A stretch of DNA of 64,000 nucleotides from Thermoanaerobaculales bacterium (GTDB lineage Bacteria > Acidobacteriota > Thermoanaerobaculia > Thermoanaerobaculales > Sulfomarinibacteraceae): assembly GCA_035358815.1 (NCBI GenBank), contig DAOPQC010000001.1:22100-86099 (forward strand), written 5' to 3'. The notes below the pieces were generated by a model. The model searched no databases, was not told where the DNA came from, and saw only the letters and a list, made by a program, of their open reading frames with translations. How positions within the stretch are numbered: the stretch's first letter is position 1; the number at the start of each line of letters is the position of its first letter. This document shows, one piece after another, positions 1,812 through 57,640 of this stretch. Made by a program: the position numbers and the translations under genes.

Positions 1812-2175
1812 GGGATAAGATCGAGGATCTAGGATCTAGGATCTGGGGCGCCCACCCGCGCTTGTCACGGCGTAGTGCAGAGCACGAAGCCGGATCCGTT
1901 CCCGTTTCCGAGAAGACCCGCTTCCGCGCCCGCTTCCGCTTCCGCGCCCGAACCCCGCCCGAACGCCGCCCGACCAGCATCTGGGATTTGGGGGATAGAA
2001 TCTCGCCCCACCCGTCCGCTTCCGCTTCAGAACTCAACCCGAAGAAGCTCGCCTCAGCTCACGCCTCGCGTATCCCCAGCCAGCGGGATGCCTTGCTGTC
2101 GAGTCAGCTTCTGGACGGACCACGGCATCCGGGCGCGGGCGCGGAAGCGGGCACGGAAGCGGAAGCGGAAGAGGG
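1812..2175. repeat. Composite intergenic repeat block (convergent gene ends)
   Basis: (GGATCTA)3 at 1825-1848. The TGTCACGGCGTAGTGCAGAGCACGAAGCCGGATCCGTTCCCGTT box at 1863-1925 is about 95% identical to 5816-5877. The C-rich arm (CGCTTC/CGCGCC)n at 1917-1950 is inverted relative to the G-rich arm (GCGGAA/GCGGGC)n at 2131-2172. Confidence 0.85.
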
Positions 2176-4639: not shown

Positions 4640-4930
4640 CCCGCTTGCGCGTGCGAAGGAGATCGCTGCGTCGGGGCGCGGGCGCGGAAGCGGGAGGGGA
4701 AGTGCGGAGTTCGGTGCCTGGCACCATTGTGCCCGGGAGTGGAAGAGCGGAGTTCGGTGCCTGGCACCATTGTGTGTGCTTCCGCCTCCGAGCCTGGATG
4801 AAGACTCCGAGGTCGTGTCGAATATCCGGGCGCCGGAGTTGATCGAGACATTTCGGGAGCGGGAACGGGAGCGGGAACGGGTGGGGGCTATCCCCCAAGC
4901 CCCAGCCCCTATCCCCTGGAAGGGAGGGCG
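4640..4930. repeat. Composite intergenic repeat block
   Basis: (GCGGGC/GCGGAA) run at 4676-4700. Two copies of GCGGAGTTCGGTGCCTGGCACCATTGTG (4704-4731 and 4747-4774). G3-tract hexamers at 4855-4887. Confidence 0.85.
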
Positions 4931-4945
4931 GCGTACCATTCCGTC

Positions 4946-5791
4946 ATGAGCGAGATCGTCCTCGAGCGGAGAGAAGGCCCGGTCCTGGTGCTCACCCTGA
5001 ACGATCCGGAGCGGGCCAACCCGCTGTCGGCGGCACTCGCCGATCGCCTGTACCGCGCCCTGGCGGAAGCGGCCGAAGACGCGACGGTGCGTGCGGTCGT
5101 GTTGACCGGAGCCGGCCGGCACTTCTCGGCCGGCGCCGACCTCGCGGCTCTCGAGCGGCTCGCCGAGGGCGGCACCGAGGCCGACAACCGGGAGGACTCG
5201 GAGCGGCTGGAGCGGCTCTACGCCGAGCTGCTCGACCACCCCAAGCTGACCGTGGCGGCGGTCCACGGCGCGGCGATCGGCGGCGGTTGCGGCCTGGCGA
5301 CGGCCTGCGACCTGGTGATCGCCGAACGGAGCGCGCGCTTCGGCTACACCGAGCTCACGATCGGTTTCATCCCGGCGCTGGTGTCGACCTTCCTGACCCG
5401 CCGGGTCCCAGGTCACGTGGCCCGCCGGCTGCTGCTCGACCCCGGGCTGGTGGACGGCGAGCGGGCCGTCGCGCTGGGGCTGGCGGACGAGCTGGTCGAC
5501 GACGGCGCAGCGATCGAGGCCGCGATCGAGCGCGCGCGGTCGATCGCGCACCGCAGTTCGGGTGCTGCCCTCGCCGCCACCAAGAGGCTGCTCAACCTGA
5601 CCGTCGGCATGGGCTGGCGGGACGCTCTCATGGCGGCGTCGCGGGCCAACGTCCAGCAGCGACGGCACCCGGACTGCCGGCACGGCGTGCGCACCTTCCT
5701 CGCCACCAAGTCGACGCCGGACTGGCTCGCGGAGGGGGGCGAGAAGGCGGAGTCGGTGCCGAAGGACGAGGATCTGGGATCTGGGGAATAG
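4946..5791 (+). CDS. Enoyl-CoA hydratase/isomerase (crotonase) family protein
   Basis: Crotonase motifs 'VVLTGAGRHFSAGADL' and 'AAVHGAAIGGGCGLATACD'. Confidence 0.85.
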   Translation: MSEIVLERREGPVLVLTLNDPERANPLSAALADRLYRALAEAAEDATVRAVVLTGAGRHFSAGADLAALERLAEGGTEADNREDSERLERLYAELLDHPKLTVAAVHGAAIGGGCGLATACDLVIAERSARFGYTELTIGFIPALVSTFLTRRVPGHVARRLLLDPGLVDGERAVALGLADELVDDGAAIEAAIERARSIAHRSSGAALAATKRLLNLTVGMGWRDALMAASRANVQQRRHPDCRHGVRTFLATKSTPDWLAEGGEKAESVPKDEDLGSGE

Positions 5792-6125
5792 GGTCCAGCC
5801 CCACCGGCCCGCTCGTGTCACGGCGTCGTGCAGAGCACGAAGCCGGATCCGTTCCCGTTCCCGAGACGACCCGCCCGCTTCCGCTTCCGCGGGCAGCCAG
5901 GATGGCTACCCCACAACGCCCGGGTGTCGTTCCCGTCCCCGTTCCCGTTCCCGCTCCCGTCCCCGTCTCTCACAGGAAACGGTGCCAGGCACCGAACTCC
6001 GCACCTCCGCTTCGGCCTCCGAAATGGTGCCAGGCACCGAACTCCGCACCTCCGCTTCGGCTTCCGGATCCGCTCCCGTTCCCGGGCGCGTCTCTTCTTG
6101 GAGCGGTCTCATGGTGTGGAGGTCA
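5792..6125. repeat. Composite intergenic repeat block, roughly the reverse complement of 4640-4930
   Basis: GATC heptamers at 5768-5785. TGTCACGGCGT box at 5816-5877. (CGTTCC/CGTCCC)n at 5928-5968. Two copies of GGTGCCAGGCACCGAACTCCGCACCTCCGCTTCGG (5981-6015 and 6026-6060). Confidence 0.85.
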
Positions 6126-6132
6126 AGTAACC

Positions 6133-6221
6133 GGACCGCGGAGGGCGCCGAGAACGCGGAGAAGGATCAACCGATTGTGCGCCCTGGCCTCAGCGCTCTC
6201 GGCGCTCTCAGCGGTTCACGT
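6133..6221 (-). repeat. ~90-nt hairpin-forming repeat element (GTGAACCGC...GCGGTTC type), copy 1
   Basis: Its reverse complement aligns along its length with 50297-50388 and 53482-53572. The termini GTGAACCGCTGAGAGCGC and GGCGCCCTCCGCGGT(T)C are inverted. Confidence 0.8.
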
Positions 6222-6320
6222 GGGGTGGGAGTGCGAGACGACCCGCGCCTGCCTCCGAGATCGTTCCCGAAGCGCCAGTCTGCTTGATGCCGCGATGCGG
6301 CGAGCATACAATCCGCCGCC

Positions 6321-6974
6321 ATGGCCGGCCGACCAGCACGTCCGCGTCGCGGCGAGGAGATCGCCAGCGCCGTCACCCACGGCCTCGGCGCCGCCGCGTC
6401 GGTCGCCGGCTTGGCCGTGCTCGTCGTGGCCGCGGCGGGGCGAGGCGACGCGTGGCACGTTGTGAGCGTCAGCGTCTTCGGTGCGACGCTGGTCCTGCTC
6501 TACGCCGCGTCCACCCTCTACCACGGCCTCCCGCTCGGCCGGGCCAAGGCGGTCTTCCGGGTGCTCGATCACAGCGCGATCTACCTGCTCATTGCCGGCA
6601 CCTACACCCCGTTCGCCCTGGTCAGCCTGCGCGGTCCGTGGGGCTGGTCCCTGTTCGGCGTGATCTGGGGCTGTGCGGTGGCCGGGATCGTGCTCAGGAC
6701 GACGTTCGGTGTGCGCTGGCGGGTCGCGCTGGTCGTCCTCTACGTGGCGATGGGTTGGGCGGGGGTTGTCGCGGTCAGGCCGATGATCGCCGCGATGCCC
6801 GCCCCCGGCATTGCCCTGGTGGCGATGGGGGGCCTGGCCTACACCTCGGGAATCGCGTTCTACGGCTGGCGCCGGCTGCCGTACCACCACGCGGTGTGGC
6901 ACCTGTTCGTGCTCGCGGGCAGCGCGCTCCACTTCCTCGCAGTGCTGCTCTACGTCGTCCCGCGAGGTACGTGA
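6321..6974 (+). CDS. Hemolysin III / PAQR family membrane protein
   Basis: Seven predicted TM segments. Family motifs 'EEIASAVTHGLG', 'YAASTLYH' and 'DHSAIYLLIAGTYTPF', plus the C-terminal 'HHAVWHLFVLAGSALHF'. Confidence 0.85.
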   Translation: MAGRPARPRRGEEIASAVTHGLGAAASVAGLAVLVVAAAGRGDAWHVVSVSVFGATLVLLYAASTLYHGLPLGRAKAVFRVLDHSAIYLLIAGTYTPFALVSLRGPWGWSLFGVIWGCAVAGIVLRTTFGVRWRVALVVLYVAMGWAGVVAVRPMIAAMPAPGIALVAMGGLAYTSGIAFYGWRRLPYHHAVWHLFVLAGSALHFLAVLLYVVPRGT

Positions 6975-12106: not shown

Positions 12107-15100
12107 ATGTCTCGTCGGCGAACTGTCGCATGCGCCGCCGTGCTGCTCCTGGCTTGGATCGATCTCCAGGCCGACTGCCCGGAGCGGGTTGCACACTTGC
12201 CTGGGTACGTTTCCGCGGTTGCCGTCGTGGGTGGCTACGCCTATGTCGGCGGCGCGAACTCCTTCTGGATCGCTGACGTCTCGGATCCGTCGGCGCCGCT
12301 GGTGGTCGGCGAGGTGGTCGCGTTGTCACATGGGGTGGAGGACATTGCGGTTTCCGGCGAATATGCGTATGTCGGCACGTTCAATCGTCTCCACGTGTTC
12401 GACATCAGTGACCCCTCTGCGCCGGTCGAGGTCGGGTCGACGGGATTCGGAGTACCGTTCCACTCGCCACGGGCGGTAGCGGTTTCGGGCGGCTACGCCT
12501 ACGTCGCAGTCTGGGGTGTGGGCCTCAGCGTGATCGATGTGCGCACGCCGTCGGCGCCGGTCGAGGTGGGCTTTCTCGAAACGCCCGGCAGCCCCTCTGA
12601 CGTCGCTGTCTCGGACGGCTACGCCTACGTGGCTGACTCGTCGTCCGGCCTGCGAGTGATCGACATCTCCACTCCGTCCTCGCCGGTGGAGGTGGGTTTC
12701 ATCGACACGGGAGGCGATGCCCTTTCTGTTGCGGTGTCGGGTGAGTACGCCTACGTTGGAGTCCCACACCTTCTCTATGGTGACGCGGGGCTCATCGAGT
12801 TGATCGACGTGAGCAGGCCATCGGCGCCGGTGATGGTTAGCTACGTTTACACCGCGTCAGGCATCTCCGACGTCACGGTGGATGCAGGCTTCGTCTTCCT
12901 TCCTTGGGGCCGGAGCTATAGCGACAGAGGGGGCCTTCGCATCATCGACGTGAGAAACCCGTTCACGCCGGAACAGGTTGGCGTCCTCGATGCGCTGGGC
13001 AGGGCCTGGGACATCGCCGTGGAAGGCGGCATAGCCTATGTCGCGGGCAGCCACGGTCTTCGTGTCATCGACGTCAGTGACCAGTGGGCGCCGGCGGAGG
13101 TGGGGTTGCCGGGCGCAGCGGGCGGCGTCTTTGCCGGAAGCGTCGCGGTGTTGGGCAGCTTCGGGTACGTCGCAGGAGAGGAGTGGGGGATCAAGGTCAT
13201 TGATGTCAGCAGGCCCACGACGCCGCTGGTGGTGGGCCTTCTCGACGCGCCGTACTGGACCGTCAGCGTCGCGGTTTCGGGCAGCTATGCCTACGTTACC
13301 TGGAGTGACTACCACAGCGGAGGCTTGCGTGTCATCGACGTCAGCGCTCCCGCGGCGCCGGCGGAGGTCGGTTCCGTCGACGTCCCGAACCCGTATGCAG
13401 TCGCCTTGTCCGGCGGCTACGCCTACGTCACGTGGAATCACCTCGGCGGAGGCCTTAGCGTCATTGACGTCAGCGATCCCTCGGCACCGGTCGAGGTCGG
13501 CTCCATCGACACGCCACAGTATGCCGTGGATGTCGCCGTTGCGAGCGACTATGCGTACGTTGCCTGGGGCGATTGGGGTTCCAGTACAGGCGGTCTTCGC
13601 GTGATCGATGTGAGCAGACCGTCGGCGCCAGTTGAGGTGGGCTTCGTCGACACGCCAGGCTACGCAGCAGCTGTGGCCGTCGCGGGTGACTATGCATACG
13701 TTGCTGACAACGATGCCGGACTTCGAGTGATCGACGTGAGCTCGCCTTCCGCTCCGGTCGAGGTGGGCTTCGCCGACACGCCAGACTATGCCTGGGATGT
13801 CGCCGCTGCGGGTGACTATGCGTACGTTGCCTGGGGCAATTGGGGTCCCAGTACAGGCGGTCTTCGCGTCATCGATGTGAGCAGGCCGACGGAGCCGGTG
13901 GAGGTGGGATATGACAGCACCGCCTTGTCGAGCGCTGTCGCGGTCGCGGACGGAATCGTGATCCTCGCAGGCGATGGCTTGTACATCTACAGTGAGTGTG
14001 GCTCACTCGGGGACCCACGCGAGTCCTATATCCCGGCGGCGGCGTATGCGGCCGGCGCCGAGGGAAGTCACTTCCAGACCGACGTCGAGATCAACAACAC
14101 CGGGGCGGAGGACGCGCAGGTTGTCTTCAAGTGGCTCCCGCGCGGGGAGGACAACTCTGAGCCGGTCGAGTCCGAGCCGATCACGCTCGCTCCTGGCCAG
14201 AGCCTGCGCTACGAGAACGTGTTGGCAGAGCTCCTTGGCCTTGTGCCCGACTCCCTCGGCGCCCTCAAGCTGGTGGCGAGCACCCCCTCCGTGATCGGTA
14301 TGAGCAGGACCTACAACCTGCCTGCCGGAGCGGCTGCAGGCTCCTTCGGCCAGGGCCTGCCCGCCATCCGGGCGGTCGAGATGATCCAGGGCACCGAGCC
14401 GCGGCGCATGCTCTTTCTGAGCGAGAATGGCGACTTTCGAGCCAATGTCGGCTGTGTCAACGGCACGGACCGACCGCTCCGGGTCAACATCTGGGTCTTC
14501 GACGACGAAGGCTCGTTCCTCGAGGCGAAGGCCATGGACCTTGGTCCTTACTCCGACAACCAGGTCAACCGGGTCTTCCGAGACTGGTCGCCGGTCGATG
14601 GCTACGTCGACGTGTGGGCCGACCGCGACGACGCCCTCTATACCTGCTATGGCTCGCTGCTCGACAATATGACGTCCGACCCGACGACGATTCTGCCGCA
14701 GGTGCCGTCTGACGAGCGGACGTTCATCCCGGCCGCGGCGCTGAGCGCCGGGCTGGAGGGCTCGTTCTTCCAGACGGATGTCGAGCTCAACAACGTCGGA
14801 TCGAACGATGTCACCTACGAGCTGCTGTGGCTGCCGCGGGGGGCCGACAACAGCGAGCCCATCCACAGCGAGGGGTTCTCGCTCGCCTCTGGCGCCGGGG
14901 TGCGCTACGCCAACGTGCTCGACGAGGTATTCGGGCTAGAGGCCGACCAAGTTGGAGCGCTGGCGGTCGAGGCGAGCGGCGAGGAACTGCTGGCGATGAG
15001 CCGGACCTACAACCTGCCGTCGGCCAAGGTCGCGGCCACCTTCGGCCAAGGGCTGCCAGGCATCCCGGCTGGCCGGATGATCCGTTCGGGGGTGAAGAAG

Positions 15101-23584: not shown

Positions 23585-23720
23585 GCTCACCCCCGTGCCC
23601 GTCTCCGTGCCCGTCTCCGTTTCCGGTCGGGGGGTGCCCGCCGGGAGCGTCCATTCGGGAACGGGAACGGGAACGGGATCGGGAACGGGTGGGCCTCGAA
23701 CCCCTGACCTCCAACCCCTC
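23585..23720. repeat. C-rich/G-rich inverted hexamer arms
   Basis: 'CCCCGTGCCCGTCTCCGTGCCCGTCTCCGTTTCC' (23590-23623) faces 'GGGAACGGGAACGGGAACGGGATCGGGAACGGGTGGG' (23657-23693). Confidence 0.8.
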
Positions 23721-24780: not shown

Positions 24781-24884
24781 CGGGACCTCCTCGGCGAACA
24801 CGGTAGCGCGGAATCGTGGCGGGGCGAAGGCGGCGGCGGGGCAGGGCAACCGCGCGACCGCCGGGACTGGGGTTGGCGGGAGAC

Positions 24885-25100
24885 GTATCACGTATCACCT
24901 ATCACCTCCTCGGGGACGGGAACGGGAACGGGAACGGGTGCGGGCACGGATCCGGCGTCGCCTTCGCATACCCCTTCACAATTGCGGGCGCGGGCGGGCA
25001 CGGAGACGGGCACGGGGCGGGCGGTATCACCTATCACGTATCAGTTCGTCGGGCGCGGAAGCGGAAGCGCGCGCGGAAGCGGGCGACCCGGCCCCGCCAC
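24885..25100. repeat. Heptamer-bounded G-rich repeat block in the ddl / DUF1343 divergent region
   Basis: GTATCAC-GTATCAC-CTATCAC (24885-24906) and GTATCAC-CTATCAC-GTATCAG (25024-25044) bracket the G3-tract arrays at 24912-24949 and 24985-25025. (GCGGAA)n follows at 25050-25085. Confidence 0.8.
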
Positions 25101-25125
25101 CCCCAGCCCGAGGTACGATGTCGGC

Positions 25126-35319: not shown

Positions 35320-35500
35320 CGCCCGTTCCCGTACCCGTTCCCGCTTCCGCTTCCGCGCCCGCTTCCGAGGAAGTGACCGGTGAGAGGTGATACGGCCCCC
35401 CCAGCCCGTGCCCCTGCTCGTCACGCCGGAGCCGAAGGCCGCGCCGGATTCCCGCCTGTCACGGCGTAGCCGAAGGCGAAGCCGGATTCCCGACCGGCGA
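35320..35500. repeat. Composite intergenic repeat block
   Basis: 'CCCGTTCCCGTACCCGTTCCCGCTTCCGCTTCCGCGCCCGCTTCC' (35322-35372). Two TCACG(C/G)CG(G/T)AGCCGAAGGC..GCCGGATTCCCG boxes follow (35425-35495). Confidence 0.75.
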
Positions 35501-46865: not shown

Positions 46866-47756
46866 ATGTCGTCGGGCGTGCGGGAACCGCGGATCGCTGA
46901 GAGCCAGCCGGGATCGGCGTCGTTCCCGCTCCCGTGCCCGTTCCCGCTCCCGGATGTGACATCGATCCGGTCGGCAGCGGCCTCGCGGTCGGGGCCCGTG
47001 GACACGGCACGGACTGGCCACCGGCGAGAAGTTGGGAACGGGGACGGGAACGGGAACGGGAACGCGGAGGGGGGCTACACCCTGGTCATCGTGGTGCTGG
47101 TGGTCGCCATCATGTCGATCATGATGGCGGTGGCGGTGCAGACCGTGGAGTTCCAGATGCGCCGCGAGCGGGAGGCCGAGCTGATCTTCCGCGGCCAGCA
47201 GTACGTCGAGGCGATCCGGCTGTACCGGATGAAGTACGGCCGCTACCCGATGCGGATGAAGGAGATCTGGGAGGCCAACCCGAGGGTCGTCCGCAAGCGG
47301 TGGAAGGACCCGATGACCGACTCCGAGAGCTGGGGCCTGATCTTCCTCGGCCAAGAGGGCCGGCGGATCGGCGCCGACAACCCGCTCGGGAACACCCCGA
47401 ACGCCACCCGGACCGTCACCTACGACGGCAGCGGCCTCGATGAAGGCGGGCGGGACGATGGGACGACGATGGGGCCGGACGGCGAGAAGATCGGGCCGAT
47501 CGTCGGCGTCCACTCCACCTCGTGCGAGGAGAGCATCAAGGTCTACGAGGGGCGGACCACCTACTGCGAGTGGCAGTTCGTGTTCCGTGAGGTGCGCGGG
47601 GTCGGCGGCGGCCGCCCCCCGTCGGGCGGCTACCATCCCGGCAAGACCCCCGTCGTGCCCGGTGGGGGCGAGGGCGGCGGGAGCGGCGGCGGCGGTGGCG
47701 GCGGTGGCGGCGGCGGGAGTCCGCCGCCGGGCTACACGCCGACCATCTACCCGTAA
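46866..47756 (+). CDS. Pseudopilin-like protein (no Glu5) with a Gly-rich C-terminal tail; the 5' leader is built from intergenic-repeat sequence
   Basis: 'GG|YTLVIVVLVVAIMSIMMAVAV' hydrophobic helix. The only in-frame starts upstream are ATG 46866 and GTGs at 46878, about 46956 and 46998. The tail reads 'GGGEGGGSGGGGGGGGGGGSPPPGY'. Confidence 0.6.
   Translation: MSSGVREPRIAESQPGSASFPLPCPFPLPDVTSIRSAAASRSGPVDTARTGHRREVGNGDGNGNGNAEGGYTLVIVVLVVAIMSIMMAVAVQTVEFQMRREREAELIFRGQQYVEAIRLYRMKYGRYPMRMKEIWEANPRVVRKRWKDPMTDSESWGLIFLGQEGRRIGADNPLGNTPNATRTVTYDGSGLDEGGRDDGTTMGPDGEKIGPIVGVHSTSCEESIKVYEGRTTYCEWQFVFREVRGVGGGRPPSGGYHPGKTPVVPGGGEGGGSGGGGGGGGGGGSPPPGYTPTIYP
46915..47066. repeat. C-rich/G-rich inverted hexamer arms lying inside the 5' region of a pseudopilin ORF
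   Basis: 'CGTTCCCGCTCCCGTGCCCGTTCCCGCTCCCGG' (46921-46952) faces 'GGGAACGGGGACGGGAACGGGAACGGGAACG' (47034-47064). Confidence 0.8.
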
Positions 47757-49461: not shown

Positions 49462-50256
49462 GTGGAGGCGCTGGTGCTCGCCTCGGGGTCGTCGGGCAAC
49501 GCGGTGCTGCTGCGCTCCGGCCCCACCTCGCTGCTGGTGGACGCCGGGATCTCCGCTCTCCAGGTCCGCCGCCGGCTCGAGGTCTTCGCGCGCCGGATCG
49601 AGGACGTCACCGCGGTGCTGCTGACTCACGAGCACTCGGACCACGTGCGCGGCGTCGAGGTGCTGGCCAGGCGCCACCGGCTGCCGGTCTGGGCGACCGC
49701 CGGCACCTGGTCGGCGTTGTCAACGCGCAGCGAGGGCGGCGGCGAGCTGGCCACAGGCCGGACGACCGCGTTCGGCGCGATCCGGGTGACGCCCGTCTCG
49801 ACCAGCCACGACGCCCTCGAACCGGTCGCGATGGTCTTCGACGACGGCCGCCACCGGGTCGCGCTGTGCACCGACACCGGGACCTTCACCGCGCTCCTCG
49901 AGCACCGGCTGGCCGGCTGCGATCTGCTGCTGCTCGAGGCCAACCACGACGCCGACCTGCTGCGCGCCGGCCCTTACCCGTGGGAGCTCAAGCAGCGCAT
50001 CCTGTCGCGGCACGGGCACCTCGGCAACCACCAGGCGGCCGAGGCGGTCGAGCGGCTGGGATCGGCCGCGCTGCGCGCGGTGGTCGGCCTCCACCTCTCG
50101 GCCGAGAACAACCAGCCGGAGATGGTGCTCGAGGCCCTGCACGAGGGCGTCGGCGGCGCGGTGCCGGTGCACTGCGTGCCGCGCACCGAGATGCTGCGGA
50201 TCTCCCTCGAGGACACCCTGGTCTTCGAGCGCCGCGAGCTGCCGCTCGGGCAGTGA
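49462..50256 (+). CDS. MBL-fold metallo-hydrolase
   Basis: GTG start after 'GGGAGG'. 'LLTHEHSDHVRG' is the HxHxDH motif. Confidence 0.8.
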   Translation: MEALVLASGSSGNAVLLRSGPTSLLVDAGISALQVRRRLEVFARRIEDVTAVLLTHEHSDHVRGVEVLARRHRLPVWATAGTWSALSTRSEGGGELATGRTTAFGAIRVTPVSTSHDALEPVAMVFDDGRHRVALCTDTGTFTALLEHRLAGCDLLLLEANHDADLLRAGPYPWELKQRILSRHGHLGNHQAAEAVERLGSAALRAVVGLHLSAENNQPEMVLEALHEGVGGAVPVHCVPRTEMLRISLEDTLVFERRELPLGQ

Positions 50257-50296
50257 GATGGGGGACGGCCACGGAGGCGGACCGTCCTCCCGCCCG

Positions 50297-50388
50297 ACGT
50301 GAACCGCTGAGCGCGCAGAGAGCGCTGAGACCAGGGCCGCGCACTTCCAATGACCCTTCACCGCGTTCTCGGCGCCCTCCGCGGTTCG
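50297..50388 (+). repeat. ~90-nt hairpin-forming repeat element, copy 2
   Basis: 'ACGTGAACCGCTGAGCGCGCAGAGAGCGCTGAGACCAGGG...CACCGCGTTCTCGGCGCCCTCCGCGGTTCG'. Confidence 0.8.
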
Positions 50389-50446
50389 ATCGCTCCGCCC
50401 CTACGTGATGAAACCGTGCCACGAAGAAGAGAGCCCGGGCACGGAG

Positions 50447-50825
50447 GCGGGCGCGGAAGCGGGCGCGGAAGCGGGCGGGGGAGCAAGTCCACAACGGTGG
50501 CAGGTACCGCCATTGCGGTCATGATCAGTGGCGGAGCCAACCGAGCTTCACGGCAGGGCGGGAACGGGAACGGGAACGGGAACGGCTGGAGCCCCTATCC
50601 CCCAGATCCAAGATCCTCGTCGGAAGCGGGCGCGGAAGCGGGCGCGGAAGCGGGCGAGGGAGCAAGTCCACAACGGTGGCAGGTACCGCCATTGCGGTCA
50701 TGATCAGTGGCGGAGCCAACCGAGCTTCACGGCAGGGCGGGAACGGGAACGGGAACGGGAACGGCTGGAGCCCCTATCCCCCAGATCCAAGATCCTCGTC
50801 GGAAGCGGGCGCGGAAGCGGGCGAG
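50447..50825. repeat. Tandem direct repeat, 179-bp unit x ~2.1
   Basis: 'GAGCAAGTCC...' starts at 50481 and again at 50660. The units are near-identical and each contains (GCGGAAGCGGGC)n, GGTGGCAGGTACCGCCATTGCGG, (GGGAAC)4 and CAGATCCAAGATCC. Confidence 0.9.
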
Positions 50826-51675: not shown

Positions 51676-51823
51676 GGGGGACGAGAGGGGAGAGGGTCCC
51701 GGGACCCGTGGGTGGAGGGTCACGACCCGCCCGCTACCGCGCCCGCTTCCGTGCCCGCGCCCGCTCGTTCGTTCCGTCCTCGAGATCGCTTCGCGCCGAT
51801 GCTCTGGAGGCGCTCCCCGAGGG

Positions 51824-51898
51824 AGCCACCTTTGGCGATTTCGGGCCTCGAGCGATTCTTCAGAAGGCCCCCCGCCCCCGAAATCGCCAAAGATGGCA
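51824..51898. repeat. 22-bp inverted repeat (21/22 matches) with a 31-nt spacer, between convergent genes
   Basis: GCCACCTTTGGCGATTTCGGG (51824-51845) pairs with CCCGAAATCGCCAAAGATGGC (51877-51898). It occurs once in the window. Confidence 0.8.
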
Positions 51899-51939
51899 CG
51901 CCCGCGGGACGCGCACCCCTCGTGCTCGCCTGGCCTCCC

Positions 51940-52185
51940 GGGATCGGGAACGGGGACGGGAACGGGGACGGGAACGGGGACGGGAACGGGAGCGGGAACG
52001 AGGTACGGTACGGGCGGGGCGCTCTATTCCCGAGATCTCAGATCCCAGATCCTGGTCGGACGCGGAAGCGGATCCGACTTCCGGCTTCGCTCGAAGCTTC
52101 GCCGGGACGAGTCGCCTCCGGCTTCGCCGTGACAGGAGCGGGAGGGGGGCCTACCCCCTAGATCCTAGATCCTAGATCCTGCCCG
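51940..52185. repeat. Longest G3-tract hexamer array plus GATC heptamers
   Basis: 11 G3-4 tracts (GGGATCGGGAACGGGGACGGGAAC...) at 51940-52000. GATCTCA-GATCCCA-GATCCTG at 52033-52053. (TAGATCC)3 at 52157-52178. The reverse of the GTCACGGCG box lies at 52108-52125. Confidence 0.85.
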
Positions 52186-53394
52186 GGCCGGGAGGTGGTC
52201 CCCGACACGGCACACCAACCCCTTCAGGTACTCGGACTCCGGGAACGAGAGCAGCACCGGGTGGTCGGCAGGCTGGCCGAGCCGCTCCACCACCTGCGCC
52301 TCGACGCCGGCGTCCAGGGCGGCACCGGCGACGATGCTCTGGAACAGCTCGCCGCCGATCGCGCCCGAGCACGAGAAGGTCGCCAGCACGCCGCCCGCCT
52401 CGAGCAGCTTGAAGGCGAGCAGGTTGATGTCCTTGTAGCCGCGGGCCGCGCGCTCGCGCTGGCTGGCGGTGGCCGCGAACTTGGGCGGGTCGAGCACGAT
52501 CAGGTCGAAGGTGCGGCCGCGGTCGCGCAGGCCGCGCAGCACCTCGAACACGTTGCCCTCGACCAGCTCGCAGGTCTCCGCGGCGAGGCCGTTCAGCTCG
52601 AGGTTGGCGCGGGTCATCGCCAGCGCGTCGGCCGAGGCGTCGACCGCCAGCACCGAGGCAGCGCCGCCGGCCAGGGCGTGGACCGTGAAGCCGCCGCTGT
52701 AGCAGAAGGCGTCGAGCACCCTCCGTCCGGCCGCCAGCTCGCCGACGCGGCCGCGGTTGTTCCGCTGGTCGAGGTAGAGGCCGGTCTTGTGGCCGTGGTG
52801 GACGTCGACCCACAGCCGCAGGCCGCCCTCGCGGACCGCGATCCGGGGTGGCGGCTCCTCGCCGGCGAGCGGTCCGACCCGCGGCTCGAGGCCCTCGAGG
52901 GCGCGCACCTCGACGTCCGAGCGCTCCCACACCCGCTGCACCCCGGTCACGGCCGGCAGCAGGTTCGCGATCGGTGAGCGCCAGCGCTCGGCGCCGGCGG
53001 TGGCGAGCTGGATCACCAGGGTGTCGGCGTACCGGTCGACAATCACGCCGGGCAGGCCGTCGGCCTCGGCGTAGACCAGCCGGCAGGCGCCCTCAGGCCC
53101 GCCGGCCGCGGGCCCGCCGCGGGCTGCGATCGCGGCCTCGAGCCGGCGCGCGATCAGCGCCTCGTCGACCGGCTCGTCACGGAAGGTCCAGGCGCGGGCG
53201 CGGATCTGCGAGTGAGGGCTGTAGGCGGCGCGGGCGAGCAGCTCGCCGTCGGCCGACCGCACGTCGACCGTGTCGCCGGGGCCGGGGTCGCCCACGACCC
53301 GCGCGATCGCGCCGGAGAACACCCAGGGGTGGCGGCGCTTCAGCGACCGCTCGCGGCCGCGCCGCAGCCAGAGGGTGGGTGTGGGTGTCGACAT
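52165..53394 (-). CDS. rlmI: 23S rRNA (cytosine-C5) methyltransferase RlmI-like (PUA + class I SAM MTase)
   Basis: 'RRHPWVFSGAI' N-terminus and the SAM-binding segment 'VLDAFCYSGGFT'. 409 aa. Confidence 0.8.
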   Translation of the reverse strand: MSTPTPTLWLRRGRERSLKRRHPWVFSGAIARVVGDPGPGDTVDVRSADGELLARAAYSPHSQIRARAWTFRDEPVDEALIARRLEAAIAARGGPAAGGPEGACRLVYAEADGLPGVIVDRYADTLVIQLATAGAERWRSPIANLLPAVTGVQRVWERSDVEVRALEGLEPRVGPLAGEEPPPRIAVREGGLRLWVDVHHGHKTGLYLDQRNNRGRVGELAAGRRVLDAFCYSGGFTVHALAGGAASVLAVDASADALAMTRANLELNGLAAETCELVEGNVFEVLRGLRDRGRTFDLIVLDPPKFAATASQRERAARGYKDINLLAFKLLEAGGVLATFSCSGAIGGELFQSIVAGAALDAGVEAQVVERLGQPADHPVLLSFPESEYLKGLVCRVGDHLPARAGSRI

Positions 53395-53481: not shown

Positions 53482-53572
53482 GTGAACCGCCGAGAGCGCT
53501 GAGAGCGCAGAGGAGTCGCGAGGAAACGGTGAGACGACCTTACTCCGCGTTTTTGGCGCCCCCCGCGGTTCA
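53482..53572 (+). repeat. ~90-nt hairpin-forming repeat element, copy 3 (most divergent)
   Basis: 'GTGAACCGCCGAGAGCGCTGAGAGCGCAGAGG...CTCCGCGTTTTTGGCGCCCCCCGCGGTTCA'. Confidence 0.7.
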
Positions 53573-53722
53573 ATTCCAACGCGCCCACCCCCCGAGGCCT
53601 CACCACGACGACGCCTGAACGCCACGGGTGGGGAAGGGGAGGTGCACCGACGGACGTGGAGCGGTCAACCTGACTCGGGAACGGGAACGGGGACGGGAAC
53701 GGGCAGCGACACTCGACCGTGG

Positions 53723-56700
53723 TCAGCCGCGCTCGCACCACTCCCTGGCGTTCTGGAACAGCTTGAGCCACGGCGAGGCGGCGAGCGTGCGCTGCCAGTC
53801 GCGCGGCATCCACCCCCATTGCCAAGTCAAGAAGGTCCGCTCCGGATGGGGCATCAGGGCGAGGTGGCGGCCGTCCGGCGAGGTCAGGGCCGCGATCCCG
53901 TGCGGCGAGCCGTTGGGGTTGAGCGGGTAGGCCTCGGTCGGCGCGCCGCCGTCGTCCGCGAAGCGGATCGGCGCCAGGTGATCGGCGAGCACCCGCTCGA
54001 GCACCGCCTGCTCAGGGAAGCAGGCGCGGCCCTCGCCGTGCTGCACCCAGATGCCGAGCGTCGAGCCGGCCATGCCGCGCAGCATCACCGCCGGGCTGTC
54101 GAGGATGGTGACGGTGGCGAAGCGCGACTCGAAGCGGCCGGAGGCGTTCTGGATGAAGCGCGGCTGCGCGGTGTCCGGCAGCCCGCGCCAGGGCAGCCAG
54201 CCGAGCAGCGCGAACAGCTGGCAGCCGTTGCAGACGCCGAGCGAGAAGGTGTCGGGCCGCTCGTAGAAGGCGTCGAACTGGCCGCGCAGGCCGTCGTTGA
54301 AGCGGATCACCCCGGCCCAGCCCTTGGCCGAGTCAAGGACGTCGGCGTAGGAGAAGCCGCCGACCGCCGCGAGGCCGCGGAACCGCTCGAGCGTCACCCG
54401 GCCGGCCAGCAGATCGGACATCGTGACGTCCCACGGCTCGAAGCCGGCGAGGTGGAAGGCGGCAGCCATCTCGCGGTCGCCGTTGGAGCCCTCCTCGCGC
54501 AGGATCGCCACCGGCAGCTTGCGGCGGCGGCGCAGCACCGCCGGCGGGGTCGGCACGGGCGAGAAGGCGAGGGCGTAGGCCGGCGGCCGCCGGTGGCGCA
54601 GCCCCGCCCGTTCCTCGGCGACGCAGACCGGGTCGGCCTGCAGCCGGTCGAGCTCGAAGGAGGTCGCTTCCCAGAGTCCGCGCAGCTCGCGCATCTGCTC
54701 CTCGAGCACGAGCTCGCCGGCAACGCCGATCCGGATGACGGGCGCGGCCAGCGTGCGCCCGATGGCGACGCACGGCACGTCGCGGCCGGCGAACGCGGCC
54801 AGCGCCTCGTCGAGGTCGCCGGGGTCGACCTCGAGGACGAGGCCCAGCTCCTCGGCGAACAGCACCGCGATCGGGTCGGCCCCGGCGGGCTCGGTGCGGA
54901 GGTCGACCTCGATCCCGCAGTCGCCGGCGAAGGCCATCTCGAGCAGGGTCGTGACCAGGCCGCCGTCGGAGCGGTCGTGGCCGGCGCTGACCAGCCCGCC
55001 GGCGATCAGCTCCTGGACCGCGGCGAAGGCCCGGGCGAGCAGGCCGGAGTCGTCGACGTCGGGCGGCTCCTCGCCGACCTGGCCGAAGACCTGGGCCAGC
55101 GCCGAGCCGCCGAGCCGGCGCCGCCCGCCGCCGAGGTCGACCCAGAGCAGCACGCCGCAGCCGGGCAGCTTGAGGTCCGGGGTCACGGTGGCGGTGATGT
55201 CCGGGCAGCCGACGTAGGCCGAGACGACGAGCGAGCCGGGCGCCTTGACGACCTCGCCGTCGGGTGCGAGCGCGGCCATCGAGATCGAGTCCTTGCCGCC
55301 GTCGACGGCGATGCCCAGCGTGATCATCAGGTCGCGCATGGCGACCGCCGCATCGTGGAGCGCCGCGCCCTCGCCGGGCAGCTTGGCCGCCCACATCCAG
55401 TTCGCCGAGCAGCGCACGTCGGGCAGCGCGCTGACCCGCGCCCAGACCAGGTTGGTGAGCGCCTCGCCGACCGTGAGGCGGGCCATCGCCGCCGGGTCGA
55501 GCAGGCCCTTGATCGGCTGCTCACCGATCGCGGTCGCGCCGCCGGTCGTACCGAGGTGGGAGTGGGCGATGACCGCGACGTCGGCGACCGTGAGCTGGAG
55601 CGGGCCGGCGCAAGGCTGGCGCGCGATCAGGCCGGTCACCGCGCGGTCGACCTTGGTGGTGAGGAAGCGCTTGGATCCCACCGACAGCAGCCGCAGCACC
55701 CGCTCGAGCGCGGCGCGCACGGTCAGGCCCTCGGGCAGCGCGAGCGGCGCGGGCCGCGGTTGCACGCGATCGAGCGCGAAGGTCTTCTGGGGCATGTCGC
55801 CGAGCACGTCGGCGAGGGCGAGGTCGACCGGGGTCGAGCCGTCGCGCTCGTCGTGGACCACCACCCGGCCGTCGCCGGTGACGCGGCCGACGAGGGCGAC
55901 CGGGACCTTCTCGCGCTCGCACAGGGCGCGGAAGGCCGCGGCGTGCTCGGGCTTGAGCAGCAGGGCGTCGTTCTCCTGGTACTCGGCGCCCCAGATCTCG
56001 AGCACCGACAGGGTGTCGTCGCCGACCGGCATCGAGCGGATCTCGATCGTGGCTCCGGCCGGGTCGACGATTTCCTTGAGGACGTTGCAGTTGCCGCCGG
56101 CGCCCTGGTCGTGGATGCTGACGATCGGGTTGTCGTCGCCGAGCTCGGAGCAGGCGCGGATGACGCGGTTGAGCTTCTGCTCCATCTCGGCGTCGCCGCG
56201 CTGCACGGCGTTGAAGTCGAGCTCGGCCGCGTTCTCGCCCTGCACCATGCTCGAGGCGGCGCCGCCGCCCATGCCGATCCGGTAGGCCGGACCGCCGACC
56301 TTGACCACCAGCATGCCGGGCTCGGGCGGCTGCTTGGCGGCGTGGCGCGCGTCGAGGCGGCCGATGCCGCCCGAGAACATGATCGGCTTGATCCACTCGC
56401 GGCGCTCGCCATTCGGCAGCCGCAGCCCGAACGAGCGGGTGTAGCCGGCGATCACCGGCTCGCCGAACTTGTTGCCGTAGTCCGAGGCGCCGTTGGAGGC
56501 CTCGATCTCGATTTGGAGCGGCGGCGCCAGGTTGGAAGGGTAGGGGAACCCGGGGTCCTCCCACGGCAGCTGGTAGCCCGGGATGCGCAGGTTGCCGACG
56601 CAGTAGGCGGCGGTCCCGGCCGTGAACAGCGACCCGCGGCCGGTGGCGTGGGTGTCGCGCAGGCGGCCGCCGGTGCCGGTCTCCGCGCCCGGGAAGGGCG

Positions 56701-57640
56701 CCACCCCGGACGGGAAGTTGTGAGTCTCGGCCGTGAACAGCAGGTGCTCGTCGATGCTGCGCGGGACGAGCGGCGAGGGCGCTCCGGCCGTGGCCGGGTG
56801 GAGGACGCGAACCCGGTGGCCGCGGATCGCGCTCGAGTTGTCGGCAAACGCGATGACGCTGTTGTTGGGGTTGGCCTCGAGCGTCTGCCGCACGACGCCG
56901 ATCAGGTGGTCGGGGGCGGCGGCGCCGTCGATGACGAGCCGGCCCTTGAAGAACCAGTGCCGCGAGTGCTCGCTGTTGGACTGGGCGATGTCGAAGCACT
57001 CGACGCTGGTCGGGTTGCGGCCGAGCCGGCGGGCGAACAGCTCGGTGTAGTAGTCGAGGTCGCGGTCGTCGAAAGCGAGCCCGAGCTCGCGGTTGATGCG
57101 CGCGAGCGCCGCGCGGCCCTGCTCGAGCACCGGCACCTCGACCACCGGGTCCGGCTCGACGCCGGTCGCGAACGAGCGCAGCGGCTCGGGGTACCGGCAC
57201 TCGGTCATCCGGTCGTGGATCGAGGACAGGAACGCAGCGGGCTGGTGGTCGGCGAGCGGGCGCGAGCTGCGCAGCAGGTAGCGCCGGGAGCGCTCGATGC
57301 GGAGGACGTCGGCGAGGCCGCAGGCATGGCAAACCGCGACCGCGTTGGTCGACCAGGCTGTGGTGAAGCTGAGGCGCGGCCCCACCTCGAGAATCGGGCC
57401 GGCCGCCTCCTCGAGGAAGCTCGTCGGCCGGCAGCGCTCGGGCTCGAAGGTTTCGGCGAGCAGCCACCTCAGGGCCTCGAGCTCGGCGGCGGACAGCGGG
57501 CGACGGAGCGCGATGTTGAAGCAGTGCTCGGTGTCGACCGCCGTGACCTCGGGTCCGATCAGCGTGCGGGCGGTGTCGAGCAGCGTCCGGCGCTGGCCCT
57601 CGGGCACGCCCGGCGCCCGATAGAGGTGCTGCAGCTCCAT
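53723..57640 (-). CDS. purL: Phosphoribosylformylglycinamidine synthase, single-chain large form
   Basis: The ATG at 57640 (MELQHLYR) lies inside ORF 53723..57775. 1305 aa. AIRS-like repeats and a C-terminal glutaminase domain ('GVCNGCQ'). Confidence 0.9.
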   Translation of the reverse strand: MELQHLYRAPGVPEGQRRTLLDTARTLIGPEVTAVDTEHCFNIALRRPLSAAELEALRWLLAETFEPERCRPTSFLEEAAGPILEVGPRLSFTTAWSTNAVAVCHACGLADVLRIERSRRYLLRSSRPLADHQPAAFLSSIHDRMTECRYPEPLRSFATGVEPDPVVEVPVLEQGRAALARINRELGLAFDDRDLDYYTELFARRLGRNPTSVECFDIAQSNSEHSRHWFFKGRLVIDGAAAPDHLIGVVRQTLEANPNNSVIAFADNSSAIRGHRVRVLHPATAGAPSPLVPRSIDEHLLFTAETHNFPSGVAPFPGAETGTGGRLRDTHATGRGSLFTAGTAAYCVGNLRIPGYQLPWEDPGFPYPSNLAPPLQIEIEASNGASDYGNKFGEPVIAGYTRSFGLRLPNGERREWIKPIMFSGGIGRLDARHAAKQPPEPGMLVVKVGGPAYRIGMGGGAASSMVQGENAAELDFNAVQRGDAEMEQKLNRVIRACSELGDDNPIVSIHDQGAGGNCNVLKEIVDPAGATIEIRSMPVGDDTLSVLEIWGAEYQENDALLLKPEHAAAFRALCEREKVPVALVGRVTGDGRVVVHDERDGSTPVDLALADVLGDMPQKTFALDRVQPRPAPLALPEGLTVRAALERVLRLLSVGSKRFLTTKVDRAVTGLIARQPCAGPLQLTVADVAVIAHSHLGTTGGATAIGEQPIKGLLDPAAMARLTVGEALTNLVWARVSALPDVRCSANWMWAAKLPGEGAALHDAAVAMRDLMITLGIAVDGGKDSISMAALAPDGEVVKAPGSLVVSAYVGCPDITATVTPDLKLPGCGVLLWVDLGGGRRRLGGSALAQVFGQVGEEPPDVDDSGLLARAFAAVQELIAGGLVSAGHDRSDGGLVTTLLEMAFAGDCGIEVDLRTEPAGADPIAVLFAEELGLVLEVDPGDLDEALAAFAGRDVPCVAIGRTLAAPVIRIGVAGELVLEEQMRELRGLWEATSFELDRLQADPVCVAEERAGLRHRRPPAYALAFSPVPTPPAVLRRRRKLPVAILREEGSNGDREMAAAFHLAGFEPWDVTMSDLLAGRVTLERFRGLAAVGGFSYADVLDSAKGWAGVIRFNDGLRGQFDAFYERPDTFSLGVCNGCQLFALLGWLPWRGLPDTAQPRFIQNASGRFESRFATVTILDSPAVMLRGMAGSTLGIWVQHGEGRACFPEQAVLERVLADHLAPIRFADDGGAPTEAYPLNPNGSPHGIAALTSPDGRHLALMPHPERTFLTWQWGWMPRDWQRTLAASPWLKLFQNAREWCERG

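What the first reader, a model, noticed from the sequence alone, without database searches (positions are those of the whole stretch)
6133..6221. ~90-nt element with inverted termini in three copies: candidate MITE-like element or structured sRNA family
Three sequences align over their whole length: 6133-6221 (reverse orientation), 50297-50388 and 53482-53572. The shared pattern is ACGTGAACCGC[TC]GAG[AC]GCGC...GAGAGCGC...CCGCGTT[CT]T[CT]GGCGCC[CT][TC]CCGCGGTTC.

The 5' ~26 nt are an imperfect reverse complement of the 3' ~26 nt (CCGCTGAGAGCGCCGAGAGCGCTGAG versus CCGCGGAGGGCGCCGAGAACGCGGAG). This predicts a long stem with a ~30-nt variable loop. All copies are intergenic and adjacent to hexamer arrays.
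Basis: seen in the sequence. Interest (0 to 1): 0.6.

Follow-up and report, generated by a model that had tools for sequence, protein, structure and literature searches.

The report
Cargo-less hairpins of a nuclease-gene element
The three ~90-base hairpin repeats are real, and they look like gene-less copies of a little-studied element found in many bacterial phyla, whose full form is a small nuclease gene (GxxExxY family) enclosed by the same inverted repeats.

Summary
Three copies (6133-6221 minus, 50297-50388, 53482-53572) share two conserved arms that form a long imperfect hairpin; chance expectation is zero.

The arm is GAAC followed by three tandem 9-mers (CGCNGAGNG). The same arms occur in many phyla. 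In full-length form they enclose a ~125-aa GxxExxY (PD-(D/E)XK nuclease fold) gene. This held in 12 of 12 GxxExxY loci chosen by protein similarity alone.

In cyanobacteria, gene-less hairpins are demonstrable internal-deletion derivatives of the neighbouring full element. In Gemmatirosa, one detected gene coexists with at least 78 hairpin matches.

The window copies are old: two sit at orthologous sites in relatives, and a fourth site is polymorphic. Their arms diverge far less than loop and flanks, without compensatory changes at the variable positions. I found no target-site duplication, promoter, terminator or Rfam match.

Verdict: a MITE/REPIN-like non-autonomous element of an apparently undescribed family, not a classical structured sRNA. 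Three things are not shown: that this genome encodes a GxxExxY protein, that the protein binds or cuts the arms, and whether the hairpin acts as DNA or RNA.

The parts
6133..6221 (-). Copy 1, cargo-less hairpin. Arms are at 6189-6217 and 6133-6161 with a 27-nt loop. It lies between an enoyl-CoA hydratase gene (4946-5791, +) and a HlyIII-family gene (6321-6974, +), upstream of a promoter-like site at 6284-6312.
   Evidence: The hairpin is identical at the orthologous site of metagenome contigs L124 (flanks about 99% identical) and L156 (flanks about 93%).
6078..6240 (-). Extended homologous unit around copy 1: the hairpin plus its conserved flanks.
   Evidence: BLAST of L008 and L041 against the window, 77% identity over 160 nt and 74% over 174 nt; alignment A2.
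50297..50388 (+). Copy 2, cargo-less hairpin. Arms are at 50301-50329 and 50359-50387. It starts 41 nt after the stop codon of a metallo-beta-lactamase-fold gene (49462-50256, +) and lies upstream of a DUF3011 gene.
   Evidence: Orthologous copies are present in L008 (87.6% identity) and L145.
50266..50442 (+). Extended unit around copy 2: CTCCCGCCCGACGTGAACC, the hairpin, then GGTTCGATCGCTCCGCCCCTACGTGATGAAACCGTGCCACGAAGAAG.
   Evidence: The 3' flank motif is unique in the window.
53482..53572 (+). Copy 3, the most diverged hairpin. Arms are at 53484-53512 and 53543-53571. It lies between the 3' end of purL (53723-57775, -) and the start of an RlmI-like methyltransferase gene (52165-53394, -).
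   Evidence: Its loop resembles that of metagenome hairpin L152.
6061..6084 (-). Hexamer array (CGGRRV)n that follows copy 1 by 49 nt, in the hairpin's own orientation.
50436..50483 (+). Hexamer array that follows copy 2 by 48 nt.
53676..53705 (+). Hexamer array that follows copy 3 by 104 nt.

Best explanation
Each copy is a cargo-less, non-autonomous member of a cross-phylum family of inverted-repeat elements.

Anatomy (shown). The arm is (G/T)AAC followed by three tandem 9-nt units (CGCNGAGNG). The two arms are inverted copies of each other, so either DNA strand or either transcript reads purine-rich arm, loop, pyrimidine-rich arm.

Full-length form (shown in other genomes). The arms enclose a ~125-aa GxxExxY protein (Pfam PDDEXK_3, a PD-(D/E)XK nuclease fold). 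It is usually inserted co-directionally between host genes, with the 5' arm starting 0-25 nt after the upstream stop codon.

Mechanism (inferred). The 9-mers are binding sites for the cognate GxxExxY nuclease, which maintains or moves both full and gene-less copies in trans. This would resemble the way a RAYT serves REPINs or a transposase serves MITEs.

In this genome. The copies are old, mostly fixed relics at boundaries between transcription units. Any present activity would need a GxxExxY gene elsewhere in the genome, which I have not shown. Folding of the hairpin in mRNA is likely but may be a by-product.
For: 1. The arm motif is highly specific: 300 hits in 1.19 Mb of fetched loci plus the window against 0 in reversed sequence. 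It occurs in Cyanobacteriota, Planctomycetota, Verrucomicrobiota, Chloroflexota, Gemmatimonadota, Acidobacteriota, Methylomirabilota, Bipolaricaulota and Zetaproteobacteria.

2. Every arm pair 395-467 nt apart encloses a GxxExxY ORF (TIGR04256, E 1e-41).

3. Reverse test: 12 of 12 GxxExxY loci picked by protein similarity alone carry these arms or a complete hairpin next to the gene. They include Gemmatirosa, Sphingomonas (between fabD and fabG) and Bacteroides (40% GC).

4. An nhmmer model built only from those protein-route arms ranks the window arms 1st, 2nd, 4th and 6th of 7 hits in the window.

5. Deletion derivatives are shown directly. The L075 hairpins keep the leader and trailer of the adjacent full element, and the L093 hairpin keeps the first and last ~7 codons. 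An L130 loop keeps a C-terminal coding relic (E 0.013).

6. Many hairpins per gene. Gemmatirosa has at least 39 hairpin matches on each of two megaplasmids and one detected gene. L005 has hairpins in at least five intergenic spacers of a 7.4-kb contig that also carries the gene.

7. Arms are constrained as sequence. Between c2 and c1, arms differ at 4 of 57 positions, the loop at 12 of 30 and the flanks at 26 of 70.

8. Whole 9-mers change on both arms together between lineages (CGCAGAGGA, CACAGAGTA, CACCAAGGA).

9. A hairpin is present in three relatives at a site where the window has none.
Against: - No GxxExxY gene lies in the window or in the fetched contigs of its relatives.
- No full-length element with Holophagae-type subterminal sequence was found.
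- No target-site duplication is seen, and no clean empty site.
- Copies within the window are 7-16% diverged in the arms and 40-60% diverged elsewhere, so there is no sign of recent movement.
- The individual nhmmer E-values are weak, 0.11 to 7.5.
- Nothing shows that the protein binds or cuts the arms. Its nuclease assignment rests on Pfam membership, conserved acidic and lysine residues, and weak fold matches (E at least 0.006).
- Many loci were collected with the arm pattern itself, so the proportions of solo arms, hairpins and full elements are biased.
Confidence: 0.6

Rival explanations
1. Host-serving RNA hairpin at transcription-unit boundaries. Transcribed as part of longer mRNAs, the stem would act as a 3'-end stabiliser, a factor-dependent terminator or an RNase III site, as REP, ERIC and NEMIS elements and rRNA intervening sequences do. 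The link to GxxExxY would then be only historical. This partly overlaps with the best explanation.
For: All three copies lie between co-directional genes, after the 3' end of one unit and before the next start. The quasi-palindrome gives the same stem in either orientation, with stability above shuffles. Two copies are kept at orthologous sites in relatives. The 23S rRNA intervening sequence, a stem of terminal inverted repeats around a small ORF, is cut by RNase III (PMC4990558).
Against: No U-tract terminator is attached. Pairing at the variable arm positions is at chance (37.2% against 34.5 +/- 3.5%), and the same mismatches are kept in all paralogues, so sequence rather than pairing is what is conserved. 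A purely structural role does not explain a 9-nt repeat motif shared across phyla. One orthologous site lacks the element with no visible replacement.
Confidence: 0.2
2. Landing pad rather than relic. The gene-less hairpin would be the uninterrupted recognition site of a homing-type GxxExxY nuclease. The gene would then be copied into the loop by repair that uses the arms as homology.
For: Full elements sit beside gene-less hairpins, and the number of hairpins differs between strains at one locus. Arrangements of arm, gene, arm, loop, arm occur (L130, L172). The protein is 65-88% identical across phyla, as expected for a horizontally moving gene. From my own knowledge, small PD-(D/E)XK homing endonucleases exist, for example I-Ssp6803I.
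Against: Hairpins that retain ORF codons (L093, L130) must derive from full elements, not precede them. No cleavage data exist. Arms of 29 nt are short for homology-directed repair.
Confidence: 0.12
3. Stand-alone structured small RNA family, transcribed as a discrete ~90-nt molecule that acts in trans.
For: Stable hairpin; several copies.
Against: No Rfam family matches, only weak generic miRNA-precursor hairpin hits. No promoter or terminator flanks any copy. The loop, where a trans-acting RNA would be expected to carry its specificity, is the least conserved part. The same arms enclose a protein gene elsewhere.
Confidence: 0.03
4. Ordinary REP/REPIN doublet mobilised by a RAYT (IS200-like Y1 transposase).
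For: The architecture is similar: two inverted arms forming a hairpin, dispersed in intergenic DNA, with many hairpins per protein gene.
Against: There is no GTAG or CGTC tag (classification in PMC3733652). Single arms are not palindromes. The gene enclosed by the arms is GxxExxY, not a Y1 transposase. Genuine RAYT genes flanked by REPs in L039 and L138 have unrelated repeats.
Confidence: 0.03

Closest known systems
REPIN-RAYT systems (REP doublets and their single-copy Y1 transposase; Bertels and Rainey 2011, PMC3116915)
   Same: Short hairpin-forming inverted doublets are dispersed in intergenic DNA and far outnumber the protein gene. The protein gene itself is flanked by the same repeats. 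Copies are often old and vertically inherited.
   Different: The protein is a PD-(D/E)XK-fold GxxExxY protein, not a HUH/Y1 transposase. There is no GTAG or CGTC tag. Each arm is a tandem array of 9-mers rather than a palindrome. The arm sequence is shared across phyla, whereas REP families are usually lineage-specific.
MITEs (for example Correia/NEMIS, ERIC, RUP, Nezha)
   Same: Small, non-coding, with terminal inverted repeats and multiple copies. They are internal-deletion derivatives of a coding element, and they sit next to genes and fold in mRNA.
   Different: No target-site duplication is seen. The partner is not a known transposase. The full element is only about 0.5 kb and lies inside operons, co-directional with the host genes.
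23S rRNA intervening sequences with an S23p/four-helix-bundle ORF (Coxiella, Leptospira; PMC4990558)
   Same: A small ORF is enclosed by terminal inverted repeats that form a stem of about 28 bp. Short tandem purine-rich repeats lie just before the start codon. Forms without the ORF exist, and the origin is selfish or neutral.
   Different: Those elements lie in rRNA helices and are excised by RNase III. The elements here lie in mRNA spacers, carry a different protein family, and have no excision data.
Free-standing homing endonuclease genes (phage T4 seg and mob genes; PD-(D/E)XK I-Ssp6803I)
   Same: A small nuclease gene wedged between conserved host genes (trpD/trpC, fabD/fabG, mod/res), with high protein identity across distant hosts.
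   Different: Homing genes are not enclosed by long inverted repeats and do not leave dispersed gene-less hairpins. No target cleavage has been shown here.

Membership tests
MITE | Small, non-coding, with terminal inverted repeats | tested here: met
   85-88 nt from arm end to arm end, no ORF, and arms of 29 nt that are 22-24 of 29 complementary.
MITE | Multiple copies in the genome | tested here: met
   Three copies in 64 kb and a fourth site in relatives. The whole-genome count could not be obtained.
MITE | Shares termini with, and derives by internal deletion from, an autonomous coding element | tested here: inconclusive
   Met for the family: L075 and L093 hairpins against the adjacent full GxxExxY element, and the L130 relic. 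For the window lineage, no full-length parent or GxxExxY gene was found.
MITE | Target-site duplication at the borders | tested here: not met
   No direct repeat is visible in the 14 nt on either side of the hairpin in any of the three copies, nor at the borders of the extended unit.
MITE | Insertion polymorphism with a recognisable empty site | tested here: inconclusive
   A hairpin is present in L041, L154 and L160 and absent from the orthologous window spacer 24842-25106. That spacer is wholly remodelled, so no empty site can be read.
MITE | Partner protein is a transposase | not testable with these tools
   GxxExxY has a PD-(D/E)XK fold by Pfam and by weak fold matches. Its activity is unknown.
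REP/REPIN-RAYT | Conserved GTAG (or CGTC) tag at one end of each REP | tested here: not met
   The ends are GAACC...GGTTC. Classification from PMC3733652.
REP/REPIN-RAYT | Each REP is itself an imperfect palindrome | tested here: not met
   Five of the six single arms fold no better than shuffles; c2's 5' arm folds about 2 sd better, but only as a short 5-7-bp stem.
REP/REPIN-RAYT | Associated gene is a RAYT (Y1/HUH transposase) flanked by the repeats | tested here: not met
   The enclosed gene is GxxExxY in all cases. True RAYTs in L039 and L138 carry other repeats.
Rfam structured RNA families | Match to a curated covariance model | tested here: not met
   No hits at gathering score in the window. 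Only sub-threshold miRNA-precursor hits at the E-value threshold.
Structured RNA (general) | Compensatory substitutions that keep the stem | tested here: inconclusive
   Within the common arm type, variable positions pair at chance. Across lineages, both arms change together: 17 pairs with double changes against 10.7 +/- 1.4 in shuffles, 0 of 500. DNA-level inverted repeats would give the same result.
Intrinsic terminator | GC-rich stem followed by a U tract | tested here: not met
   No terminator-like site coincides with any copy.
rRNA intervening sequence | Located in a 23S or 16S rRNA helix and excised by RNase III | tested here: not met
   All copies lie between protein-coding genes. Excision cannot be tested here.
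Integron attC site | R'' RYYYAAC and R' GTTRRRY core sites at the ends | tested here: not met
   Read by eye: the window ends GTTCACG, GTTCGAT and GTTCAAT do not fit GTTRRRY. Neighbouring integrase genes were not searched.
GxxExxY-associated inverted-repeat family (defined here) | Arm = (G/T)AAC plus three tandem 9-mers CGCNGAGNG, present as an inverted pair | tested here: met
   The six window arms score 20-24 of 24, with 0 control hits at 19 or more. They are the top hits of an independently built arm model.
GxxExxY-associated inverted-repeat family (defined here) | A GxxExxY gene in the same genome | not testable with these tools
   Only 64 kb and a few related contigs are available, and none carries the gene.

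The most novel reading that the evidence does not exclude
GxxExxY proteins (at least 8000 clusters, function unknown) and these hairpins together form an undescribed, phylum-spanning class of selfish or domesticated element. A minimal PD-(D/E)XK nuclease would recognise arrays of 9-nt repeats on two inverted arms. It would ride inside host operons directly after stop codons, and would seed genomes with gene-less hairpins that it maintains in trans. This would be a nuclease-based counterpart of the REPIN-RAYT partnership. The oriented hexamer arrays that bracket host genes in this Holophagae genome may be a related gene-bracketing phenomenon.
Probability: 0.4. Interest if true: 0.8.

Novelty: new variant of a known kind. 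Interest (0 to 1): 0.62.

Why it matters
GxxExxY (PF13366, TIGR04256) is a very large family of small proteins with no known function, and my searches found only passing mentions of it in the literature. Showing that the gene is regularly enclosed by a conserved inverted repeat made of 9-mers gives the family a concrete, testable role: a nuclease tied to its own repeat. So does showing that it sits inside operons such as trpD-trpC, fabD-fabG and mod-res, and that gene-less hairpins with the same arms are scattered through genomes of many phyla.

It would also explain a class of GC-rich intergenic hairpins that annotators otherwise meet as spurious ORFs or unexplained repeats.

For this window, three unexplained repeats become dated relics of that system.

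Tried and rejected
- **Rfam.** At gathering score and at the E-value threshold, on the window and on a full cyanobacterial element, nothing real matched.
- **Literature.** Searches by family name, Pfam/TIGR accession, arm sequence, IVS plus four-helix-bundle, Holophagae repeats and REPIN/RAYT found no description of the association. Sequence-string hits were unrelated primers.
- **Viral contig scan** with one GxxExxY protein: no relatives.
- **Plasmid search** with the copy-2 unit: no match.
- **Relic GxxExxY codons in hairpin loops:** only L130 gave a signal, and the window loops gave none.
- **Second protein search** aimed at finding an Acidobacteria or Holophagae GxxExxY: no such names among the 120 hits listed.
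- **Other recurrent cargo between arms:** only GxxExxY recurs in sense orientation. Other clusters are host genes next to solo arms.
- **A weak fourth arm at 46884** was inspected and dismissed.
- **Strand-of-action inference** from G-U versus A-C mismatches was abandoned, because the element is quasi-palindromic and the two mismatch types interconvert on strand flip.
- **attC, terminator and REP readings** were rejected on their defining features.

Full report
**1. The observation**

They align over their whole length at 79% mean column identity. Degenerate patterns for the 5' arm and the 3' arm each match exactly three times, with none in 100 shuffles. Each copy folds into a single long imperfect hairpin on either strand (MFE -46 to -53 kcal/mol, z -2.7 to -3.9).

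The window is about 71% G+C. Frame-specific GC3 gene calls and Pfam place the copies between ordinary genes:
- enoyl-CoA hydratase | c1 | HlyIII-family protein
- metallo-beta-lactamase-fold hydrolase | c2 | DUF3011 protein
- purL | c3 | RlmI-like methyltransferase

In each case the two flanking genes point the same way. The only addition is that the homologous unit of c1 and c2 extends beyond the hairpin to about 165-177 nt.

**2. Where the window comes from, and how old the copies are**

A Holophagae MAG contig (L008 and L041) is syntenic with the window at about 85-88% identity.
- Copy 2 is present at the orthologous site in L008 and in metagenome contig L145.
- Copy 1 is present in L124 (about 99% identical, same species) and L156 (about 93%).
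- A further hairpin is present in L041, L154 and L160, in the spacer orthologous to window 24842-25106. The window has no hairpin there. That spacer is completely remodelled, so no empty site can be read.

Between paralogues the arms diverge far less than everything else:

| Comparison | Arms | Loop | Flanks |
|---|---|---|---|
| c2 vs c1 | 4/57 | 12/30 | 26/70 |
| c2 vs c3 | 9/58 | 18/30 | 34/70 |

The copies are therefore old, and the arms are the constrained part.

**3. The arm is a widespread motif**

The arm reads GAAC followed by three tandem 9-mers, CGCNGAGNG. These came from Cyanobacteriota (mostly Microcoleus), Planctomycetota, Verrucomicrobiota, Chloroflexota, Gemmatimonadota, Acidobacteriota, Methylomirabilota, Bipolaricaulota, Sumerlaeota-related MAGs and Zetaproteobacteria. 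A narrower pattern found 43 metagenome contigs.

A relaxed detector (at least 19 of 24 specified bases) gives 300 hits in the 1.19 Mb collected and none in the reversed sequences. In the window it finds only the six arms of the three hairpins.

**4. What the arms enclose**

Where two arms face each other 395-467 nt apart, the interval always holds a ~125-aa ORF of the GxxExxY family (TIGR04256, E 1e-41; Pfam PDDEXK_3). This is seen in several cyanobacteria, in a verrucomicrobial MAG, and in a Zetaproteobacteria MAG where it lies between trpD and trpC. No other protein recurs in that position.

Because those loci were collected with the arm pattern, I ran the reverse test. GxxExxY proteins were taken by protein similarity alone from two searches (at least 8000 clusters each; 65-88% identity across phyla) and from the plasmid collection. 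Their flanks were then read. All 12 distinct loci carry arms of this family, in one of two arrangements:
- arms on both sides of the gene (L164, L165, L166, L169, L172, L174, L175, Sphingomonas, Bacteroides);
- complete gene-less hairpins next to the gene (L170, L171, Gemmatirosa).

The gene is usually co-directional with its neighbours and often sits inside operons: trpD|trpC, fabD|fabG, and methyltransferase|ResIII helicase of a restriction system. The 5' arm begins 0-25 nt after the upstream stop codon. In three cases the stop is the TAA of TAACCGC.

An nhmmer model made only from these protein-route arms ranks the window arms 1st, 2nd, 4th and 6th among its 7 hits in the window. Each E-value is weak (0.11-7.5), as expected for a 30-nt model in GC-rich DNA.

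**5. Gene-less hairpins derive from full elements**

In one cyanobacterial locus, two hairpins lie beside a full element. Each keeps its 5' arm plus about 27 nt of leader, and its trailer plus 3' arm. In a sister strain a hairpin still holds the first and last ~7 codons of the ORF (alignment A3). A 102-nt loop in L130 retains a C-terminal coding relic (E 0.013). The same locus holds different numbers of hairpins in different strains.

Hairpins greatly outnumber the gene:
- The Zetaproteobacteria contig L005 has hairpins in at least five intergenic spacers within its 7.4 kb.
- In the cultured Gemmatirosa kalamazoonensis, the hairpin next to the single detected GxxExxY gene matches at least 39 places on each of two megaplasmids. 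A 50-kb stretch holds five hairpin pairs with 18-26-nt loops. That density is similar to the window's.

**6. Sequence or structure?**

Within the common arm type, the five variable positions pair in 37.2% of cases, against 34.5 +/- 3.5% when partners are shuffled (482 of 2000 shuffles reach the observed value). The same mismatches are retained in all window paralogues. The stem is therefore not being kept by compensatory change at those positions.

Across lineages, however, whole 9-mers differ on both arms together: CGCAGAGGA, CACAGAGTA in L175, CACCAAGGA in L172. On an arms-only alignment with an artificial loop, 17 pairs show double-sided changes against 10.7 +/- 1.4 in shuffles, 0 of 500. 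This is what inverted DNA repeats recognised by a co-evolving protein would give. An RNA stem would give it too, so the test does not separate the two.

Because the two arms are inverted copies, either strand reads purine-rich arm, loop, pyrimidine-rich arm. Orientation relative to transcription is therefore uninformative.

Other checks:
- Single arms are not palindromes, and there is no target-site duplication.
- No promoter or U-tract terminator is attached to any copy. A good sigma-70-like promoter for the HlyIII gene lies downstream of c1.
- Rfam has nothing.

**7. The protein**

The alignment keeps invariant E, D, E and K residues in the order expected for a PD-(D/E)XK site. AlphaFold gives a confident model (pLDDT 93.5). 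Its best Foldseek matches in the PDB are all PD-(D/E)XK nucleases: Cas4 SSO0001, lambda-exonuclease-like enzymes, and a 'restriction endonuclease-like' protein, 3ijm. All are weak, at E 0.006 or higher. There is no solved relative by sequence. Activity is unknown.

**8. Interpretation**

*Shown:* the window hairpins carry the arms of a cross-phylum inverted-repeat family. The full form of that family encloses a GxxExxY gene. Gene-less hairpins arise from full elements and outnumber them. The window arms are under sequence-level constraint.

*Inferred:* the 9-mers are binding sites of the GxxExxY nuclease, which maintains or moves the hairpins in trans. The window copies are old non-autonomous members.

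*Not shown:* a GxxExxY gene in this genome, any binding or cleavage, the mode of movement (transposition, homing into hairpins, or recombination between arms), and whether the hairpin matters as RNA.

The main rival is a host-serving mRNA hairpin at unit boundaries. It is compatible with the position of the copies, and may coexist with the best explanation. By itself it does not explain a conserved 9-mer motif shared across phyla.

**9. Comparison with known systems**

It works most like a REPIN-RAYT pair or a MITE with its parent, and it resembles ORF-bearing rRNA intervening sequences in anatomy. It fails the defining tests of each:
- REP: no GTAG or CGTC tag, arms not palindromic, no Y1 transposase. 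Genuine RAYT/REP units found in passing in L039 and L138 look quite different.
- MITE: no target-site duplication and no known transposase.
- Intervening sequence: not located in rRNA.

I found no description of the GxxExxY-repeat association in the searchable literature. The PD-(D/E)XK survey lists PDDEXK_3 as 'unknown' with multiple horizontal transfers (PMC3424549). I therefore rate it a new variant of a known kind.

**10. Caveats**

- Most loci were gathered with the arm pattern, so the proportions of solo arms, hairpins and full elements are biased.
- The arms-only alignment is synthetic.
- The protein-route sample is 12 loci.
- The link between the Holophagae hairpins and GxxExxY rests on arm similarity and shared architecture, not on a parent element in that lineage.

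Noticed in passing
window, nearly all intergenic spacers, e.g. 4854-4889, 5840-6084, 23590-23691, 24911-25024, 35320-35367, 46923-47062, 50436-50823, 51728-51998, 53676-53705, 57688-57723: Hexamer arrays (CGGRRV)n, mostly CGGGAA, CGGAAG or CGGGCG, are oriented relative to genes. On the sense strand of the adjacent gene they are G-rich upstream of the start and C-rich downstream of the stop. About 25 arrays fit this rule and none clearly violates it, by my reading of the listing. Transcription units are therefore bracketed by inverted tandem-repeat arrays, the same layout as the arms around GxxExxY genes. (GGGAAC)4 also fits the usual G-quadruplex motif.
   Followed up: partly
window 4674-4778 and 5971-6077: A ~45-nt module (GGTGCCAGGCACCGAACTCCGCACCTCCGCTTCGGC) occurs twice after the enoyl-CoA hydratase gene and, inverted, twice before it (83-86% complementary). 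This gene is thus enclosed by a second kind of inverted repeat (I2, I9, I20).
   Followed up: no
window 1855-1921 and 5808-5874; inverted partner 52122-52178: A 67-nt direct repeat (93% identical) lies just after the stop codons of two + strand genes. A related inverted copy lies beside the 3' end of the methyltransferase gene. It contains GTCACGGCG and short GATCTAG repeats (D19, I3).
   Followed up: no
window 50442-50799: A perfect-to-99% tandem duplication of 179 nt, made of hexamer arrays and spacer, lies directly downstream of copy 2 and overlaps the called start of the DUF3011 gene (D6).
   Followed up: no
window 24880-24905 and 25025-25045; L041 1868-1885: Heptamer arrays (TATCACC/TATCACG in the window, CTAACCC in the relative) occupy the spacer that holds a hairpin in relatives. 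Intergenic spacers in this lineage are mosaics of short tandem repeats that turn over completely between genomes about 85% identical.
   Followed up: no
window 12379-13923: Ten or more degenerate repeats of about 126-141 nt lie inside a lower-GC region that appears to be coding. The translated motif..VIDVS.P..P.EVG.., looks like LVIVD-type beta-propeller repeats. That assignment is from memory and was not tested (D1, D3, D4).
   Followed up: no
Microcoleus loci, e.g. L087 and L019 (oriented stretches shown): In Microcoleus most hits are solo arms, not hairpins. In the two loci read in detail (L019, L087) each arm sits just after the 3' end of a host gene and reads, on the gene's sense strand, CTCTGCGCCCTCTGCGCCCTCTGCGGT(T) followed by an A-rich run. 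A T run outside the arm is common across the Microcoleus hits.
   Followed up: partly
L166/L167/L168 and L174; L005 and L169; L178: GxxExxY genes sit inside well-known operons: between the methyltransferase and the ResIII helicase genes of a restriction-modification system (two different lineages), between trpD and trpC (two Zetaproteobacteria), and between fabD and fabG (Sphingomonas).
   Followed up: partly
L039 2560-3250; L138 8220-9020: Typical RAYT (IS200-like Y1 transposase) genes flanked by REP-like palindromes lie in contigs that also carry the GxxExxY-type arms. The two repeat systems can therefore coexist in one genome.
   Followed up: no
L077 3436-3800; L073 2885-3340; L123 1268-1850: Head-to-tail arrays of hairpins, or of arm units, at fixed spacing occur in Phycisphaeraceae (168 nt), in Bipolaricaulota (about 180 nt), and in a high-GC metagenome contig where arm units repeat every ~40-50 nt.
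   Followed up: no
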